Shown in pieces: positions 21,553 to 27,904 of a DNA stretch of 32,000 bases. The stretch is taken from NCBI GenBank assembly GCA_003144275.1, contig NJBF01000027.1:30001-62000 (forward strand), read 5' to 3'. Every line of letters begins with the position of its first letter. Position 1 is the stretch's first letter. The position numbers were made by a program, and so were the translations under genes. This DNA comes from Candidatus Heimdallarchaeota archaeon B3_Heim (GTDB lineage Archaea > Asgardarchaeota > Heimdallarchaeia > Hodarchaeales > Hodarchaeaceae). The notes under the pieces are model-generated. The model was not told the DNA's origin. It did not search any database and saw only the letters and a list, made by a program, of their open reading frames with translations.

Positions 21553-22464
21553 TCATCGTATGTGGAGCAGGTTAACGAGGAGTCGTAGGTGTCTAGGAAT
21601 TTCAGTTCTATAAATACGAAAATTAATTTTTTGTAGCTCAGTTTTATCAGGATGGGAAGGAGAATAAACCTCAATAACGTCGATAAAGCGTTGATAGAGC
21701 TTTATCCCTGCAATATTTGCTTCGAGCGGGTATTCCAAAGCTGCTTGGTCTTCATTAAGGCGAACATTCACGGTACCAAGATACATCTTTGCAGAAGAAG
21801 AAATCGCATCGGATATCATGAGAACTAGTTCTCCCGCATCTAATAATCTGGGAAAATTAGTTTTGAACTTGGATACAGGATCTTTTCCCCCCTGGACTGG
21901 GCGGTAATTTGAATCAAGTGGAATTAATACTTCATCCTGCTCAATTCCTCGTTCCGTTCTATGACCATTCAGTTCTATTGAAATATCTGAGTGAATTACT
22001 TCAACTTTTGTCTTTTCTAGATTAGTAAGCGCGTGTTCACGAGTATACGGGGTGGGATACAAAAAATTGGCTTGTTTTAATAAAACCTCTGTCACCCAGA
22101 GTTTTTCCTGAAAAACGACTGACAGATTCATTGTTGCTGGATCAAGGAGGAAAATTAATTCTGGACTCTTCATTCCACAAATCGTTGTTAGGCTAGTTGT
22201 TCGTTTTCCCCCAACTTTGTCAATTAAGGTATGTAGAATTGAAGGAACAATAATTTTATCTTGATATTGGATTTCATATGTTTCATCAAATAATAGAGGA
22301 TCCTTGGACGGTACAGAATAAGCATGATGAATCCATACATCTCCACTCACCCCCAATTGCAATTCTAAACTTTCTAATAGCGATTTTCGTCCTGGAAAGG
22401 AAAAATCATCAGCTTGTTCCATTTCTGGATCGTGAAAATCTGTTTTAGATCGATGATCTTTCAT
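21553..22464 (-). CDS. Hypothetical protein
   Basis: 303 aa ORF, apparently beta-rich, no family recognised. Confidence 0.6.
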   Translation of the reverse strand: MKDHRSKTDFHDPEMEQADDFSFPGRKSLLESLELQLGVSGDVWIHHAYSVPSKDPLLFDETYEIQYQDKIIVPSILHTLIDKVGGKRTTSLTTICGMKSPELIFLLDPATMNLSVVFQEKLWVTEVLLKQANFLYPTPYTREHALTNLEKTKVEVIHSDISIELNGHRTERGIEQDEVLIPLDSNYRPVQGGKDPVSKFKTNFPRLLDAGELVLMISDAISSSAKMYLGTVNVRLNEDQAALEYPLEANIAGIKLYQRFIDVIEVYSPSHPDKTELQKINFRIYRTEIPRHLRLLVNLLHIR

Positions 22465-22743
22465 TCCATATTATCAGTCGAATTAAGATTAAAAAGACTT
22501 ACCACTTAAATGATATTTTTCCCAAATTTGAGTATTTCATCATCAATTCTTGTTGGTAAATATCAAAGAAATACCAATCCAATCACCTGCGGATCTAATG
22601 GAATAGATTGCTTTCGTAAAATTTTTACAAAAGAAATACTTCCTATTAGTAATAAGTAAAAACAAGTAACGCTGTTTTGATGATATTTTTTTCAAGAAAC
22701 AGAGAGTTGACAATAAGAAATCAAGATTAAAAAACTTAAAGTA

Positions 22744-23958
22744 TTAGAATTTGATTACTTGTACAGGAACAAATCTAGCAACCCGTTTTCCTAATTCCAG
22801 TCTTTCAACCACTGGTAGAACCTCAGATGATCCACGATAACCATATTCTAAGGATTCTACATTTTGGATTAACAACCGACTTTGCATGGGGGCTTGAGAA
22901 AGCTCAAAGTAGAATTCACGTTCATGTACAAGTGTTTTTACTTCACTATAGGGGTATAATAGTTTATATCCTCCTCCATGTGGAAGAATATTTATCTTAT
23001 TAAGGATTGACGTGTGATCTTTTTCTTTTGCTTGCTGTGTTTGCATTCCCGTCCAATATTTTGTATTGATATTAGGTTTGCCCTCATACAAGTAAATGAA
23101 CGAATAACCATTAAATCCTATTGGGAATAATGGAAGAGGAGTTTCACCAGTTGCATCTAAAGAGTTATACAACCCTAGACGCATCGTAAATAAGTTGTTT
23201 TCTTGATAATACCCTTGATGAGTTGGGTTAGAAATACAAGTAATATTTTCCTCCCCAAAGAGAATTTCTGCAATCGATGTTCTCTTACTTTTCGAATATT
23301 CCTCCACTGATTTGAAATAGTTCAAATATTCAATACCTGATTTTTCTGGCAAACCCTCAACTAGACCAAATGGAGTTTTGACTCTCTCAAATTCTTCTTC
23401 CTTCCAGAAGCTTAAACCTTGTTTTTCTGTTTGTTGAGATGAATGTATAAGCACATAATCTCCTGGCAGTAAAAGCTTTTCATAATGAGAAGAATCGTCA
23501 GTCAATGACTCCAATCGGAGTAAATCAATGAAGTGATTGGATTTCCATACATCCCATTTGCCTGTTCGTCTTCCTACAGGTACACCATCTTTTTTTAAGA
23601 CTTGCAAACGATCCATTATCTGAAGTTTAGAAGGCATATTTGTGACATGGTAAAGACCAAAACCACAACCATTAGGATGAAGGAGACTAGGAAAAAGAAA
23701 ATCTTTCGTGATTACAGCACATCCATAACCAACTCCTGAATTAAATCTCGATTTATTTCTTGTAACACTGCCATCGGGCCCGAAAATAACTAATACATTA
23801 TTCGGATCAGAACCGGTAGCTTGATAAAAACTGATTATCTTAGCTAAACCAATGCTCATAACTTCTTTGGCTAATTTTGAAGTTAAATCTTCAGTCGTCC
23901 AAGAGTACATATGATAACTTGCTTCTTGTAACAAATTCCTTATCTGGACGCTATCCAT
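22744..23958 (-). CDS. Divergent RtcB-family RNA ligase-like protein
   Basis: Ordered RtcB motifs: PD62, NGC98G, SN141H142F, IH172S, TH247, MRLG, PH327GGG, C-terminal YRGSSEVL.VV...ELGKRVARFVPVQVIK403. Confidence 0.72.
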   Translation of the reverse strand: MDSVQIRNLLQEASYHMYSWTTEDLTSKLAKEVMSIGLAKIISFYQATGSDPNNVLVIFGPDGSVTRNKSRFNSGVGYGCAVITKDFLFPSLLHPNGCGFGLYHVTNMPSKLQIMDRLQVLKKDGVPVGRRTGKWDVWKSNHFIDLLRLESLTDDSSHYEKLLLPGDYVLIHSSQQTEKQGLSFWKEEEFERVKTPFGLVEGLPEKSGIEYLNYFKSVEEYSKSKRTSIAEILFGEENITCISNPTHQGYYQENNLFTMRLGLYNSLDATGETPLPLFPIGFNGYSFIYLYEGKPNINTKYWTGMQTQQAKEKDHTSILNKINILPHGGGYKLLYPYSEVKTLVHEREFYFELSQAPMQSRLLIQNVESLEYGYRGSSEVLPVVERLELGKRVARFVPVQVIKF

Positions 23959-24124
23959 CTAAATCTGACCTCCAATGAAGAGATTCAAGAATTAGGAATG
24001 ATTACTTCATTTCTAGCTAATTGATTGAACTAGTTATCCATTCAATAGCTTTTTCTCATATAAGTCTTAGCATTTCATTATCGCTATTAGAAATGAAAAA
24101 AAAAGGAAGACAACTATTTGTAAA

Positions 24125-25741
24125 TCAATATCCTTGAGCTTGACCATCCTTACGAGGATCAGAACCACCCATATAAGATCCATTCTCCGAAACAGATATA
24201 ATTTGACCCCCTCCAAAGTTCATCCCCACAGAGTCTCGTACATTATGTGCCATTCCCCGTAATTGTGCTTTTACTTGAAGAAGTATAGGTTCTTCAAATG
24301 CAACAAGGTTAGAATTTTGCTCATGATGAAAACGAGGACAGTTTATAGCGTCCTGAGGATCCATTCCATGTAGAACAAGGTTAAGAAATACTTGTGATTG
24401 TCCAATCGGTTGATGATGTCCGCCCATCACACCAAAGGAATGTAAAAGTTGATTTGTAGAAGGAGAAGTGATCATAGCAGGAATAATAGTGTGATACGGT
24501 CTTTTATGCGGTTCATATTGGTTAGGATGTCCTTTTTTCAGGGTAAATCCAGCTCCGCGATTCTGGAAAGCAATCCCTGTAATTGGATCAACGATTCCGG
24601 AACCAAATCCATAGTATAGGGAGTTGATAAAAGAGATGGCAAATCCTTCTTTGTCGATAGCTGTCAAATAAACTGTATCTTCCCCCATATCCAAGGTATA
24701 TGGTAATGTATTCAGAGCTTTTCTAGGGTTTATTTGACTGGCTCGAGTATGAGCATATCTATTACTCAAAAGATCACTTACTTTCACAGTCATTGAATCT
24801 GGATCAGCTATATATGCAGAAGCATCAGAAAATGCTAGTTTTTTTGCTTCAATAAGAAAGTGTAAATATTCTGCGGAGTTGAGTGGATAACGTGCAATAT
24901 CTAGCTCTTCCGCAATTGCTAAGATTTGTAAGGTGACAAGTCCTTGGCCATTCGGTCCATGTTCCCACAATTGATGATCATAAATTACTTTGGAAATCGG
25001 TTTCGTCCATTCTGCTGAAAAATCATTAAGATCAGATATACTAATGACACTTCCTTCCCCTTGTAGAAATTTAATTGTCCGATTCGCAAGATCACCTTTG
25101 TAGAAAAATTCATACCCATGTTTTGCGAGTTTCTGAAAAGTTGTTCCCAATTTTTCTTGAGTAAATATCTCCCCTGGTCGTGGAGCTCGTTCTTCGTCAA
25201 TTAAATATGTTCGACTCGCCCCTTCATGTAATTTGAGCTTTGGTACTAATTCATTCCAGACCTGAGCAATCAAAGGACTCACAGGAAATCCTGAATTTGC
25301 GTAATCTATGGCAGGATTAAGTACCTCTTCCCATGGTAAAAGACCAAATTTTTCGTGAATTATCCCCCATGCGCTTACAGCCCCAGGAACGGTAATTGGT
25401 AAGATTCCTGTTAAAGGTATTTCAGACAAATTATTCTCTGAAACTAAAGCATTATAGGATAATTTTCTAGGGGAAAAACCTGATCCATTAATTCCGATTG
25501 GTCGGTTTTCTCCAGGCACATGAAGTAGTGCAAATGCATCTCCTCCTATTCCTGTAGAAAATGGTTCAACTACATTAAGAACGGCCGCCATTGCAATTAC
25601 GGCATCACACGCATTTCCACCAGCCTTAAGCATTTGAATTCCTACAGATGAAGCTAAAGGTTGCGATGATGCGACTAAGCCATTTTTTGCATGTATAGCG
25701 GATCTTCCTGCTGAAGGTCGTCTCCAAAATTTTACTGCCAT
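24125..25741 (-). CDS. ggt: Gamma-glutamyltransferase family protein
   Basis: GGNACDAVIA, VVEPFSTGIGGDAF, TVPGAV, nucleophile Thr in DTVYLTAID, SFINSLYYGFGSG, KRPYHTIIP, GVMGG..QP, GGSDPRKDG. Confidence 0.92.
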   Translation of the reverse strand: MAVKFWRRPSAGRSAIHAKNGLVASSQPLASSVGIQMLKAGGNACDAVIAMAAVLNVVEPFSTGIGGDAFALLHVPGENRPIGINGSGFSPRKLSYNALVSENNLSEIPLTGILPITVPGAVSAWGIIHEKFGLLPWEEVLNPAIDYANSGFPVSPLIAQVWNELVPKLKLHEGASRTYLIDEERAPRPGEIFTQEKLGTTFQKLAKHGYEFFYKGDLANRTIKFLQGEGSVISISDLNDFSAEWTKPISKVIYDHQLWEHGPNGQGLVTLQILAIAEELDIARYPLNSAEYLHFLIEAKKLAFSDASAYIADPDSMTVKVSDLLSNRYAHTRASQINPRKALNTLPYTLDMGEDTVYLTAIDKEGFAISFINSLYYGFGSGIVDPITGIAFQNRGAGFTLKKGHPNQYEPHKRPYHTIIPAMITSPSTNQLLHSFGVMGGHHQPIGQSQVFLNLVLHGMDPQDAINCPRFHHEQNSNLVAFEEPILLQVKAQLRGMAHNVRDSVGMNFGGGQIISVSENGSYMGGSDPRKDGQAQGY

Positions 25742-25762
25742 TTTAATTGATCCTTTATCATT

Positions 25763-27805
25763 TCATGAATATTTTTCTATCCAGTTAATGATCTGTTTGA
25801 TACGATCCACAATATGCCGAGGTTCACCACTACGAGATAGTTCATGACCATCACGAGGATATCGAATGAATCGCATTACTTTACCGTACCGTTTACCTAG
25901 CCAAAAGAGCTGTTCTGCACTCACGATAGGTACTCGAAAATCATTTTCGGCATGGATTATTAATAACGGTGTATTAATATTCTTCACGTGAGCAACGGGA
26001 GAATCAGACCAATTACGTGCGTACGTATCTATGATCTCACCATAGTGTTGCTCGAACCATATTGGAATATCAGTTGTTAAACCGAATCCAATAAATTCAT
26101 ACACTCCTCTTTGACTAATAGCGGCTTTAAAGCGATTCGTTTGTGTGATTAACCATGCAGTCATATATCCTCCATAACTCCCACCAGTTACACTAATCCG
26201 TTGGGGGTCTAAACTCGGGTATTGGCTTAAAGCTGTGTCTAATCCTTTCAGAATATCATTTGCAGCAATCGTACCCCAATTTTCGAATACCGCTTTTCGA
26301 AACTCAACTCCATACCCATCAGAACCGTGAGGATTACAGAATATAACTGCAAATCCGCGACCAACGAGTGAATTCCATTCGTGCCACATAGTTTTCTCAT
26401 GAGGTGACCACATTGCAGCAGGCCCGCCATGAATCTCTAAGACTACAGGAATTTTCTCATCGCTGAAGCTTTCAGAGGGTAAGAAAATCCAGCCTTGTAA
26501 AGAATGTCCATTCAGCTGGAAAGAATAGGATTCTACTTTAGCAGGAGGATGCTCCTTCAAATAATTGTTATTTACTTCTGTTATCCTTCTTTCAACTGGA
26601 TTCTCGAGATTAGTGATGAAGATGTCACTTGGAAAGGAATTATGAGAAACTTCTATTGCTAGATCGCCAGTAGTTCTTGCTAGTGAGTACGAATTGATAT
26701 TACGTTCACCACCTACTACTTCTTCAACTAATTTAGTATGTAAATCTATTTTATAAAGTGATATTCGACCGTTAATAGGAGATAGGAATAATAGGGTCTC
26801 ATCAGTTAACCAACAAGCCATTGAAGCTGATCTGTGAAATTTTTCAGTTAAACAACTAATTTGAAAATCTTGTGGTGTATCTAAACTACATACAAAAATT
26901 TGTTGATCATCAAAAACTGTTTTATTCTCTCTTTTAGCTTCATACAGAACATTCTTTCCATCGGGAGATAGTTGGAAATTTGACACCCATCCAAACGCGG
27001 ATCCAAGAACGTTTGCTTTAGATGGATCATTTACTGTGATACTCAATATTTCTTGGGACATCGTCACAGAGGGATCATCAATATACTTGGACAGAATGAT
27101 TTGAGTGTCAGCGTGAGTGAATGTTCCTAATGTATAATGATACGCGATATTACCTAGATGAATCACGTCAGATATACGAGAAGGTTTGTCATCACGAAAA
27201 AAATTTCCTATAGGTATTATAAAGGGCTGTGCCTTTCGTCCTTCCAGAAAATGAGTACCTTCACGATAAAACCCGTCATTAATTACCCGAGGATCCCTTG
27301 AAAGAGATTTTATTGTTTTTTCCTTTATTTTTTCGACTTCAAAATCGATTGGGCTAAGCACAAAGGATTTACTCACTTTTGGTTGTATTATCACTTCAAG
27401 TTCTTCTTCATTAACCATAGCCAGAACGTGGAAAGATTGACTATCGTGGCTCCAAGTGAATCCTACAACACCTTTTGGGAAGTTTGTTACTTGAAACGCC
27501 TCTCCCCCAGTAACCGACATGAGAAAAACTTGCATACCATTTTCCTGACGAGATGATAGAAATGCCAATAATTTACCAGAAGGGGAAAATTTTGCAGATG
27601 TGTCTAAGTGAGTTCCAGAAGTATAACGGATATAGTTTGTAGAGTCTTTAGTTTTTAGAAATAACCCTCCCTGATAAGAATTTTTCTTCTCATTTATTGT
27701 ACGAATAGTAAATACTAATCTCCCATCTGGAGATAAACATGGATTTTCAGCAAACCGTAAGTGGACAAAATCTTCAGCATTAATTGTTTTAACATGACTA
27801 TTCAT
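25763..27805 (-). CDS. S9 family serine peptidase (acylaminoacyl/dipeptidyl peptidase) with beta-propeller
   Basis: SPDG/SPSG propeller repeats, IHGGP, GGSYGG nucleophile, HAENDFRVP, GHELSRSG; ATG 27805 preferred to 27847. Confidence 0.92.
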   Translation of the reverse strand: MNSHVKTINAEDFVHLRFAENPCLSPDGRLVFTIRTINEKKNSYQGGLFLKTKDSTNYIRYTSGTHLDTSAKFSPSGKLLAFLSSRQENGMQVFLMSVTGGEAFQVTNFPKGVVGFTWSHDSQSFHVLAMVNEEELEVIIQPKVSKSFVLSPIDFEVEKIKEKTIKSLSRDPRVINDGFYREGTHFLEGRKAQPFIIPIGNFFRDDKPSRISDVIHLGNIAYHYTLGTFTHADTQIILSKYIDDPSVTMSQEILSITVNDPSKANVLGSAFGWVSNFQLSPDGKNVLYEAKRENKTVFDDQQIFVCSLDTPQDFQISCLTEKFHRSASMACWLTDETLLFLSPINGRISLYKIDLHTKLVEEVVGGERNINSYSLARTTGDLAIEVSHNSFPSDIFITNLENPVERRITEVNNNYLKEHPPAKVESYSFQLNGHSLQGWIFLPSESFSDEKIPVVLEIHGGPAAMWSPHEKTMWHEWNSLVGRGFAVIFCNPHGSDGYGVEFRKAVFENWGTIAANDILKGLDTALSQYPSLDPQRISVTGGSYGGYMTAWLITQTNRFKAAISQRGVYEFIGFGLTTDIPIWFEQHYGEIIDTYARNWSDSPVAHVKNINTPLLIIHAENDFRVPIVSAEQLFWLGKRYGKVMRFIRYPRDGHELSRSGEPRHIVDRIKQIINWIEKYS

Positions 27806-27904
27806 AATGTTTCCCAACGATTGATGAATACAAATTCTCATGGGCAATCTTCTTCATAAGATTTATCCAGACCTCCACAATTTTGTCTTTGAATAATTTG
27901 ATTT

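What the first reader, a model, noticed from the sequence alone, without database searches (positions are those of the whole stretch)
22744..23958. Highly divergent RtcB-like RNA ligase with a remodelled active site
Seen: RtcB motifs occur in the right order (D62, C98, N141-H142, H172, H247, H327 in HGGG, K403 near the C-terminus). Established: in RtcB the Cys, His and Asn residues bind Mn2+ and the His of HGAGR is guanylylated. Deviations seen: the metal-ligand Asp of DINC/DIGC reads HPNGC, HGAGR reads HGGGY, RKGA reads RLGL, HTGSRG reads HSSQQ, and the N-terminus is unlike canonical RtcB. Inference: this is a non-housekeeping paralogue rather than the tRNA-splicing ligase, possibly with a different substrate or chemistry (RNA repair, 3'-phosphate capping, or a different nucleotide). 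No archease, RtcA or tRNA gene is nearby in this window.
Basis: partly seen in the sequence, partly recalled or inferred. Interest (0 to 1): 0.78.

Follow-up and report, generated by a model that had tools for sequence, protein, structure and literature searches.

The report
Compact RtcB-like enzyme, extra paralogue
This Asgard-archaeal gene encodes a small, unannotated relative of the RNA ligase RtcB that keeps the GTP- and metal-using catalytic core but lacks the RNA-holding residues, so it probably does RtcB-style phosphate chemistry on a substrate that is still unknown.

Summary
It matches no Pfam family. Its AlphaFold model (pLDDT 94.5) matches only RtcB structures (Z about 25; next unrelated fold 4.3).

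Invariant across 56 homologues are the bridging Cys (C98), three metal His (H142, H172, H247), N141 and the nucleophile His (H327). Nearly invariant are the guanine contacts K403, D145 and Y374.

Lost are the M2 Asp (now Pro95), the Arg that holds the 5'-OH strand (now Gln176), the Arg of HGAGR (now Tyr331), and 61 residues between the Cys and NHF.

The genome also has a canonical archease-RtcB operon, RtcA, and a second compact paralogue, so this is not the tRNA-splicing ligase.

The family occurs in 141 of 301 Asgard genomes searched. In at least 18 genera it lies beside HD, GDPD or calcineurin-like phosphoesterase genes, and fused forms exist.

The window's copy belongs to a Hodarchaeales-restricted clade without such neighbours. 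Its conserved 303-aa neighbour is not a dependent partner.

This scan had already found the same family on other genomes. Substrate and chemistry remain untested.

The parts
22744..23958 (-). CDS of the compact RtcB-like protein (404 aa), 'type A' clade
   Evidence: ORF. 80 homologues found. dN/dS 0.09-0.17. AF2 model pLDDT 94.5. RtcB fold, Z 25.
23969..23973 (-). GGAGG Shine-Dalgarno-like motif 10 nt upstream of the ATG
   Evidence: Read directly from the sequence. Function is inferred.
23773..23775 (-). D62 of GPDGS; by position the counterpart of P. horikoshii D65 of PDAH
   Evidence: Invariant 56/56. D62-to-Cys spacing is 36 residues against 33 in Pho RtcB. The equivalence is inferred from motif and spacing, not from a superposition.
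23665..23679 (-). HPNGC 94-98. C98 is the Cys that bridges both metals. P95 stands where the M2 ligand Asp95 of DINC/DIGC stands. N96 is invariant.
   Evidence: Roles of Pho C98 and D95 from PMC9745838.
23524..23538 (-). NHFID 141-145. N141 = Pho N202 (GTP alpha-beta oxygen and 5'-OH anchor). H142 = H203 (M2 ligand). D145 = E206 (guanine N1/N2 contact).
   Evidence: HMM alignment to 1uc2. Conservation. Roles from PMC9745838 and PMC8051266.
23431..23445 (-). HSSQQ 172-176. H172 = Pho H234 (M1 ligand). Q176 stands where R238, the Arg that grips the 5'-OH strand, stands.
   Evidence: Role of R238 from PMC8051266.
23215..23220 (-). H247-Q248, counterparts of Pho H329 (M1 ligand) and N330 (gamma-phosphate contact)
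   Evidence: Both invariant. The assignment rests on spacing and on the approximate alignment, which is 2 residues off at this point, so it is inferred.
22966..22980 (-). HGGGY 327-331. H327 is the counterpart of the guanylylated His404. Y331 replaces the Arg of HGAGR.
   Evidence: All five residues invariant. Aligned to HGSGR of the genome's own RtcB.
22834..22839 (-). Y374-R375. Y374 aligns with Pho Y451 of the guanine pocket.
   Evidence: HMM alignment to 1uc2 and 2epg. Kept in 55/56. The role of Y451 is from my own memory and from an earlier scan note, and was not checked in a paper here.
22750..22752 (-). K403, counterpart of Pho K480, which contacts guanine O6
   Evidence: Kept in 51/56. 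Role from PMC9745838.

Best explanation
The gene encodes an active member of an unannotated, compact sister family of RtcB. It is an extra paralogue, not the tRNA-splicing ligase. Proposed mechanism, all steps inferred: a metal centre bridged by Cys98 (M1: H172, H247, C98; M2: C98, H142, with no Asp ligand) binds GTP in a pocket that keeps K403, D145 and Y374. His327 attacks the alpha-phosphate to form a covalent enzyme-GMP. The GMP is then passed to a phosphomonoester, or an opened cyclic phosphate, on the substrate, which activates that phosphate. The residues with which canonical RtcB holds the 5'-OH RNA strand are missing, as is the Arg of HGAGR. The acceptor is therefore probably not bound as a canonical 5'-OH RNA strand. 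The reaction may stop at the capped pyrophosphate product, or it may join the phosphate to a different hydroxyl. In most relatives this step is paired with a phosphoesterase (HD, GDPD or calcineurin-like) that would make or undo the phosphate end. The window's own clade has lost that linkage and stands alone.
For: Fold. The 16 Foldseek hits with E <= 0.001 are all RtcB (best E 2e-10, prob 1.00). VIA-align gives Z 22-25, 308-325 residues aligned and rmsd 3.5-3.7 A, against 4.3 for the next unrelated fold.

Core. C98, H142, H172, H247, N141, H327, Q248 and D62 are invariant; K403, D145 and Y374 are kept in at least 90% of 56 sequences down to 23% identity. The counterparts are defined by alignments to Pho and the genome's own RtcB and by published roles.

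Selection. dN/dS is 0.09-0.17.

Not housekeeping. The genome has archease plus canonical RtcB at C53:10549-12452 and RtcA on C80. Canonical RtcB is found in 285 of 301 Asgard genomes, the compact family in 141 of 301.

Lost RNA contacts. R238 is Q176, the Arg of HGAGR is Y331, and there are 61 fewer residues between the Cys and NHF, the segment that holds R190 and Q194 in Pho.

Phosphoesterase linkage. HD lies beside the gene in 8 lineages, GDPD in 10 genera and Metallophos in 7 genera, with gaps of -4 to 78 bp. A 936-aa Metallophos protein cluster matches the model over 352 residues, TM 0.70.
Against: No biochemistry exists for any member. The M2 Asp ligand is Pro in 55 of 56 sequences, so two-metal GTP chemistry may be altered or need another ligand. 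Sequence-level homology to RtcB is marginal: hhalign E 0.02 and 8.7e-4, PDB hmmsearch E 0.027. Residue equivalences therefore rest on motifs plus fold. The window's own clade has no phosphoesterase neighbour, so the guilt-by-association argument is borrowed from paralogous clades at about 27-30% identity. Expression evidence is thin: two 151-nt contigs of one RNA library over the 5' end.
Confidence: 0.65

Rival explanations
1. It is a conventional 3'-phosphate/5'-OH RNA ligase: a very divergent RNA-repair paralogue, comparable to bacterial RtcB2 with PrfH, that binds RNA through other residues such as the family-specific invariant R71, R67, R226 and R375.
For: Complete RtcB fold and core. New invariant arginines exist. 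HD and calcineurin-like partners resemble end-healing enzymes: the Metallophos partner scores E 6e-12 against a 2',3'-cyclic-nucleotide phosphodiesterase model. The Woesearchaeota locus lies among tRNA-modification genes.
Against: R238, the HGAGR Arg and the R190/Q194 segment are all missing. RtcB needs no healing enzymes. The commonest partner is GDPD, a glycerophosphodiesterase. No endonuclease, helicase, Ro, archease or RtcA was found as a neighbour in 47 loci.
Confidence: 0.18
2. It is a catalytically dead RtcB-fold protein, a scaffold or binding protein.
For: Loss of the M2 Asp and of the RNA-contact arginines.
Against: The nucleophile His, the bridging Cys, three metal His and N141 are invariant, and the guanine contacts nearly so (at least 90%), over more than 380 clusters' worth of divergence, with dN/dS about 0.1. 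Pseudoenzymes normally lose exactly these residues.
Confidence: 0.05
3. It is the organism's tRNA-splicing ligase.
For: None beyond the fold.
Against: A canonical RtcB at 560 bits with adjacent archease is present in the same genome. The compact family was not found in 160 of the 301 Asgard genomes searched, whereas canonical RtcB is nearly universal.
Confidence: 0.01

Closest known systems
Canonical RtcB 3'-phosphate/5'-OH RNA ligase (Pfam PF01139; P. horikoshii PH1602, E. coli RtcB, human RTCB)
   Same: Same fold over almost the whole chain: Z 22-25, 308-325 aligned residues. Same order of motifs. The bridging Cys, both M1 His, the M2 His, the Asn of NHF, the nucleophile His in an HGxG loop, the C-terminal Lys and a Tyr of the guanine pocket are all kept.
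   Different: About 80 residues shorter, with 14-17% identity. No PF01139 match at E <= 1. The M2 Asp is Pro, R238 is Gln, the HGAGR Arg is Tyr, N330 is Gln and E206 is Asp. There are 61 fewer residues between the Cys and NHF. No archease partner. It co-exists with a canonical RtcB.
Bacterial RtcB paralogues: E. coli RtcB2 with PrfH, and Myxococcus xanthus RtcB3
   Same: These are extra RtcB copies beside the main one with specialised tasks. RtcB2 repairs 16S rRNA cut by colicin E3 (PMC9304027 and PMC13166195, abstracts seen). [quoted passage not shown] The only family-model hit of the window protein is a 45-residue stretch of NCBIfam PRK09588, 'RNA ligase RtcB family protein' (E 1e-4, 21 bits against a cut-off of 407).
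   Different: Those paralogues are ordinary PF01139 members. As far as I know they keep the Asp and Arg residues, but I did not check this here. The window protein lies outside PF01139.
The same compact family as noted earlier in this scan on other genomes (e1-5396086 and first-reader notes e1-5454840, e1-5449370, e1-5422435, e1-5415982, e1-5454475)
   Same: Same motif pattern (PNxC, HQ, HGGGY, terminal K), same fold verdict and same phosphoesterase neighbourhood, all reproduced independently here.
   Different: The window's gene belongs to a separate clade ('type A', SH-aLRT 98) confined to one Hodarchaeales group. It has no phosphoesterase neighbour and co-exists with a 'type B' copy.

Membership tests
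RtcB superfamily (fold level) | RtcB fold over the full catalytic domain | tested here: met
   Foldseek: the 16 hits with E <= 0.001 are all RtcB, best E 2e-10. VIA-align: Z 22-25, rmsd 3.5-3.7 A, 308-325 residues aligned; next unrelated fold Z 4.3.
RtcB family as curated (Pfam PF01139 / NCBIfam RtcB models) | Score above the family's curated cut-off | tested here: not met
   No Pfam hit at E <= 1. NCBIfam PRK09588 gives 21 bits against a cut-off of 407, over residues 77-121 only. The genome's canonical RtcB scores 560 bits with the same model.
RtcB ligase | Nucleophile His in an HGxG loop (Pho H404) | tested here: met
   H327-G-G-G is invariant 56/56 and aligns with HGSG of the genome's own RtcB.
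RtcB ligase | M1 site: Cys98, His234, His329 | tested here: met
   C98, H172 and H247 are invariant. C98 and H172 are aligned by HMM or profile. H247 is assigned by spacing and an approximate alignment.
RtcB ligase | M2 site: Asp95, Cys98, His203 | tested here: not met
   Cys and His (H142) are present, but the Asp position is Pro in 55/56 sequences. Whether the invariant N96 or D62 substitutes could not be measured.
RtcB ligase | Guanine-specific contacts (Lys480 to O6, Glu206 to N1/N2) | tested here: inconclusive
   K403 is kept in 51/56. The Glu position is Asp in 52/56. This is compatible with GTP, but specificity is not shown.
RtcB ligase | Contacts to the 5'-OH strand (Arg238, Arg190, Gln194) | tested here: not met
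   R238 aligns with Q176 (Q, P, D and others in the family). The Cys-to-NHF segment is 61 residues shorter. Roles from PMC8051266.
RtcB ligase | GTP- and Mn-dependent joining of 3'-P or 2',3'>P ends to 5'-OH ends | not testable with these tools
   Needs enzyme assays.
Archaeal tRNA-splicing RtcB | Single essential copy, commonly with archease | tested here: not met
   Archease lies beside the canonical RtcB at C53:10549-12452, not beside this gene. The genome holds two compact paralogues in addition.

The most novel reading that the evidence does not exclude
The compact RtcB-like family does not work on RNA at all. It would use the RtcB mechanism (His-GMP, then transfer to a phosphomonoester or an opened vicinal cyclic phosphate) on glycerophosphate-type or other small or lipid-head-group phosphoesters. 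It would make GDP-activated alcohol phosphates or new phosphodiesters, in a make-and-break cycle with the GDPD, HD and calcineurin-like phosphoesterases encoded beside it. That would be a new, GTP-driven route to phosphodiester bonds outside nucleic acids. The Hodarchaeales type A copy would be a further specialised offshoot.
Probability: 0.3. Interest if true: 0.85.

Novelty: new variant of a known kind. Interest (0 to 1): 0.6.

Why it matters
RtcB is the only known ligase type that activates a 3'-phosphate through a His-GMP intermediate, and all studied members act on nucleic-acid ends. Here is a large family that no Pfam or NCBIfam model captures. It occurs in about half of the Asgard genomes searched, and also in DPANN, Altiarchaeota and some bacteria. 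It keeps that chemistry's core yet has shed the RNA-strand contacts, and it is wired to phosphoesterases instead of to archease or RtcA. Finding its substrate would either reveal a new RNA-end modification or repair pathway in the closest archaeal relatives of eukaryotes, or take RtcB chemistry outside nucleic acids. It also shows that Hodarchaeales carry three RtcB-fold enzymes per genome, which matters when RNA ligation capacity is inferred from annotation.

Tried and rejected
1. The conserved 303-aa downstream gene (window 21553-22464, minus strand) as functional partner. It is adjacent in every type A locus. But two genomes of the same group, 90% and 94% complete, keep GGT, the 303-aa gene, ArsR, bactofilin and Arf in the same order with no RtcB-like gene between them. 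I read the adjacency as shared synteny.

2. The complex prediction of the two proteins gave 'no answer' (score 0.00). It counts neither way.

3. Fold of the 303-aa protein (model pLDDT 75.6). Foldseek found nothing at E <= 0.001. VIA-wide gave a best Z of 5.6 to Roadblock/LC7 domains, below the level that means anything.

4. Sequence-only proof of homology. hhalign of the family against 31 canonical Asgard RtcBs aligned only the C-terminal 36 residues (E 8.7e-4). The -glob run failed. phmmer against PDB found nothing.

5. A search for fused forms among proteins of 768-2190 aa found none. Fusions are known only from the 743-aa P0113 and from the 936-aa Atlas cluster.

6. Defence-system models (PADLOC) and Rfam gave no match.

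7. The unknown 210-aa divergent neighbour in family f14 is not detectably an HD protein.

8. Literature searches found no description of this compact family. This covers only the held library.

9. Expression. One RNA library has two short contigs over 23625-23773 and 23853-24003. The rest of the stretch has no RNA cover in that run. This is too thin to conclude anything.

10. Model coordinates are not exposed, so distances in the metal site could not be measured.

Full report
**The gene**

On the minus strand, 22744-23958 is a 404-aa ORF. A GGAGG lies 10 nt upstream of its ATG, and T-rich tracts follow both it and the upstream gene. Against orthologues of 82%, 65% and 59% identity, dN/dS is 0.09, 0.11 and 0.17. 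It is therefore a real gene under purifying selection. The window holds no tRNA gene, and no Rfam family matches around the gene.

**What it resembles**

- Pfam gives no hit at E <= 1. NCBIfam gives only 21 bits to an RtcB-family model over residues 77-121. phmmer against PDB finds nothing.
- A profile of 56 homologues finds RtcB chains first among PDB sequences, but weakly (E 0.027-0.75). It aligns the NHF...H block and the C-terminal YR...P..V.K block.
- hhalign against the genome's own RtcB gives a full-length, motif-consistent alignment at E 0.02.
- The structure settles the matter. The AlphaFold2 model (pLDDT 94.5, pTM 0.93) has 16 Foldseek hits with E <= 0.001, all of them RtcB (best E 2e-10). 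VIA-align gives Z 22-25 with 308-325 aligned residues at 3.5-3.7 A, against 4.3 for the best unrelated fold.

**Active site**

Published structures of P. horikoshii RtcB define the following roles (PMC9745838 and PMC8051266):

- M1 site: H234, H329, C98.
- M2 site: C98, D95, H203.
- N202 and N330: GTP phosphate contacts.
- H404: nucleophile.
- K480 and E206: guanine contacts.
- R238, R190 and Q194: contacts to the 5'-OH strand.

In this family the counterparts C98, H142, H172, H247, N141, Q248 and H327 are invariant. K403, D145 and Y374 are kept in at least 90% of sequences.

Four things are changed. The M2 Asp is Pro95, next to an invariant Asn96. R238 is Gln176. The Arg of HGAGR is the invariant Tyr331. 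The stretch from the Cys to NHF is 43 residues instead of 104. The nucleotide-and-metal machinery is thus kept, while the known polynucleotide contacts are gone. These equivalences rest on motif alignments plus the shared fold. I could not superpose coordinates.

**Not the housekeeping ligase**

The same contig carries an archease gene directly upstream of a canonical RtcB of 560 bits (C53:10549-12452). RtcA is on contig C80. In 301 Asgard genomes, canonical RtcB was found in 285 (88 of 90 high-quality). The compact family was found in 141 (55 of 90 high-quality).

**The family**

- 80 word-index homologues, all named 'hypothetical protein', come from Hodarchaeales, Heimdallarchaeota, Lokiarchaeum ossiferum, Thorarchaeota and Woesearchaeota.
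- An exhaustive profile search finds 384 clusters at 50% identity.
- The ESM Atlas adds clusters dominated by Altiarchaeota and some bacteria.
- All 24 genomes of the window's order have the family, and most have two copies.
- The window's genome has a second copy on C70, 27% identical.
- In a maximum-likelihood tree the window's clade ('type A') is one well-supported group (SH-aLRT 98). Its neighbouring clades include the operonic Heimdall forms. The genome's type B copy sits in the other half of the tree with the Loki, Thor and Woese forms.

**Context**

In 47 loci, relatives of the other clades lie next to phosphoesterase genes:

- An HD phosphohydrolase in 8 lineages. It is mostly immediately upstream on the same strand (overlap of 4 bp, gaps of 2 and 35 bp) and divergently oriented in three genera.
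- GDPD in 10 genera.
- A 520-555-aa calcineurin-like phosphoesterase in 6 genera, plus a 255-aa form in a seventh. This includes Metallophos, RtcB-like, GDPD three-gene operons with 12-78 bp gaps.

An Atlas cluster of 936-aa Metallophos proteins matches the model over 352 residues at TM 0.70, which I read as a fusion. One 743-aa protein fuses an APH-type kinase to the domain, inside a radical-SAM, aminotransferase, SDR and HAD cluster. Other neighbours include DegV and YhhN, both lipid-related families. No RNA-repair genes recur.

The window's genome keeps an orthologue of the Metallophos protein on C34 and a GDPD on C80, unlinked to either RtcB-like gene.

**The window's own neighbourhood**

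Type A loci read S9 peptidase, GGT, RtcB-like, 303-aa protein, ArsR, bactofilin, flavoprotein, Arf-like GTPase. The 303-aa protein was found only in Hodarchaeales-type genomes. Two genomes keep it in place without the RtcB-like gene, so I do not count it as a partner. See Tried and rejected for the complex and fold attempts.

**Reading**

The best-supported view is an active RtcB-type His-nucleotidylating, phosphate-activating enzyme. It is an accessory paralogue whose substrate is not bound the way canonical RtcB binds a 5'-OH RNA strand. Whether the substrate is a special nucleic-acid end or a small or lipid phosphoester is open. The GDPD, DegV and YhhN contexts lean towards the latter. The HD and cyclic-nucleotide-phosphodiesterase-like partners are compatible with the former.

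This agrees with an earlier follow-up in this scan on another genome (e1-5396086), which I reproduced independently. New here are the type A/type B split, the three RtcB-fold genes per Hodarchaeales genome, and the loss of the phosphoesterase linkage in type A.

Noticed in passing
window 21553-22464 (-): A 303-aa protein found only in Hodarchaeales-type genomes, with many invariant His, Asp and Arg residues. No Pfam or NCBIfam match. AF2 pLDDT 75.6. Its best structural resemblance is weak (Z 5.6) and is to Asgard Roadblock/LC7 domains. It sits in a conserved block with ArsR, bactofilin and an Arf-like GTPase, so a GTPase-regulator role is a lead.
   Followed up: partly
G000:C70:16789-18012 (L013:5986-7227): Second compact RtcB-like paralogue ('type B', 413 aa, 27% identical). 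A HIT-domain gene lies three ORFs upstream on the opposite strand, also in a congener. HIT enzymes remove nucleotidyl caps, but the link is unsupported beyond one genus.
   Followed up: partly
G000:C53:10549-12452 (about 18 kb before the window start): Classical archease-RtcB gene pair, with RtcA on C80:29447-30415. The housekeeping RNA ligation set is complete.
   Followed up: yes
L026:6276-9992, L028:6294-10018, L071, L074: Heimdall-class operons of Metallophos (about 525 aa), RtcB-like and GDPD with 12-78 bp gaps. A 936-aa Metallophos protein cluster in the ESM Atlas matches the RtcB-like model, consistent with a fusion.
   Followed up: partly
P0113 (743 aa; context): APH-type kinase fused to the RtcB-like domain, inside a cluster with two radical-SAM enzymes, an aminotransferase, an SDR and HAD hydrolases. 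It looks like small-molecule biosynthesis.
   Followed up: no
L021:9415-10065 and homologues in family f14: An unannotated protein of about 210 aa always lies divergently upstream of the RtcB-like gene in one Asgard family (7 genera). No Pfam match and no detectable similarity to the HD partner.
   Followed up: partly
L064 and L065 (bacterial-type contigs): Distant family members of 369-376 aa lie next to CHAT protease, an AAA/TPR (MalT-like) protein, patatin, HigB and an integrase. These are defence-island-like surroundings, though no PADLOC model matches.
   Followed up: no
L092 and L093 (G014, G013) versus window 21553-27847: In two congeners both the RtcB-like gene and the S9 peptidase gene are missing from an otherwise colinear block (GGT, 303-aa gene, ArsR, bactofilin, Arf). 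This is an insertion or a loss that I could not polarise.
   Followed up: partly
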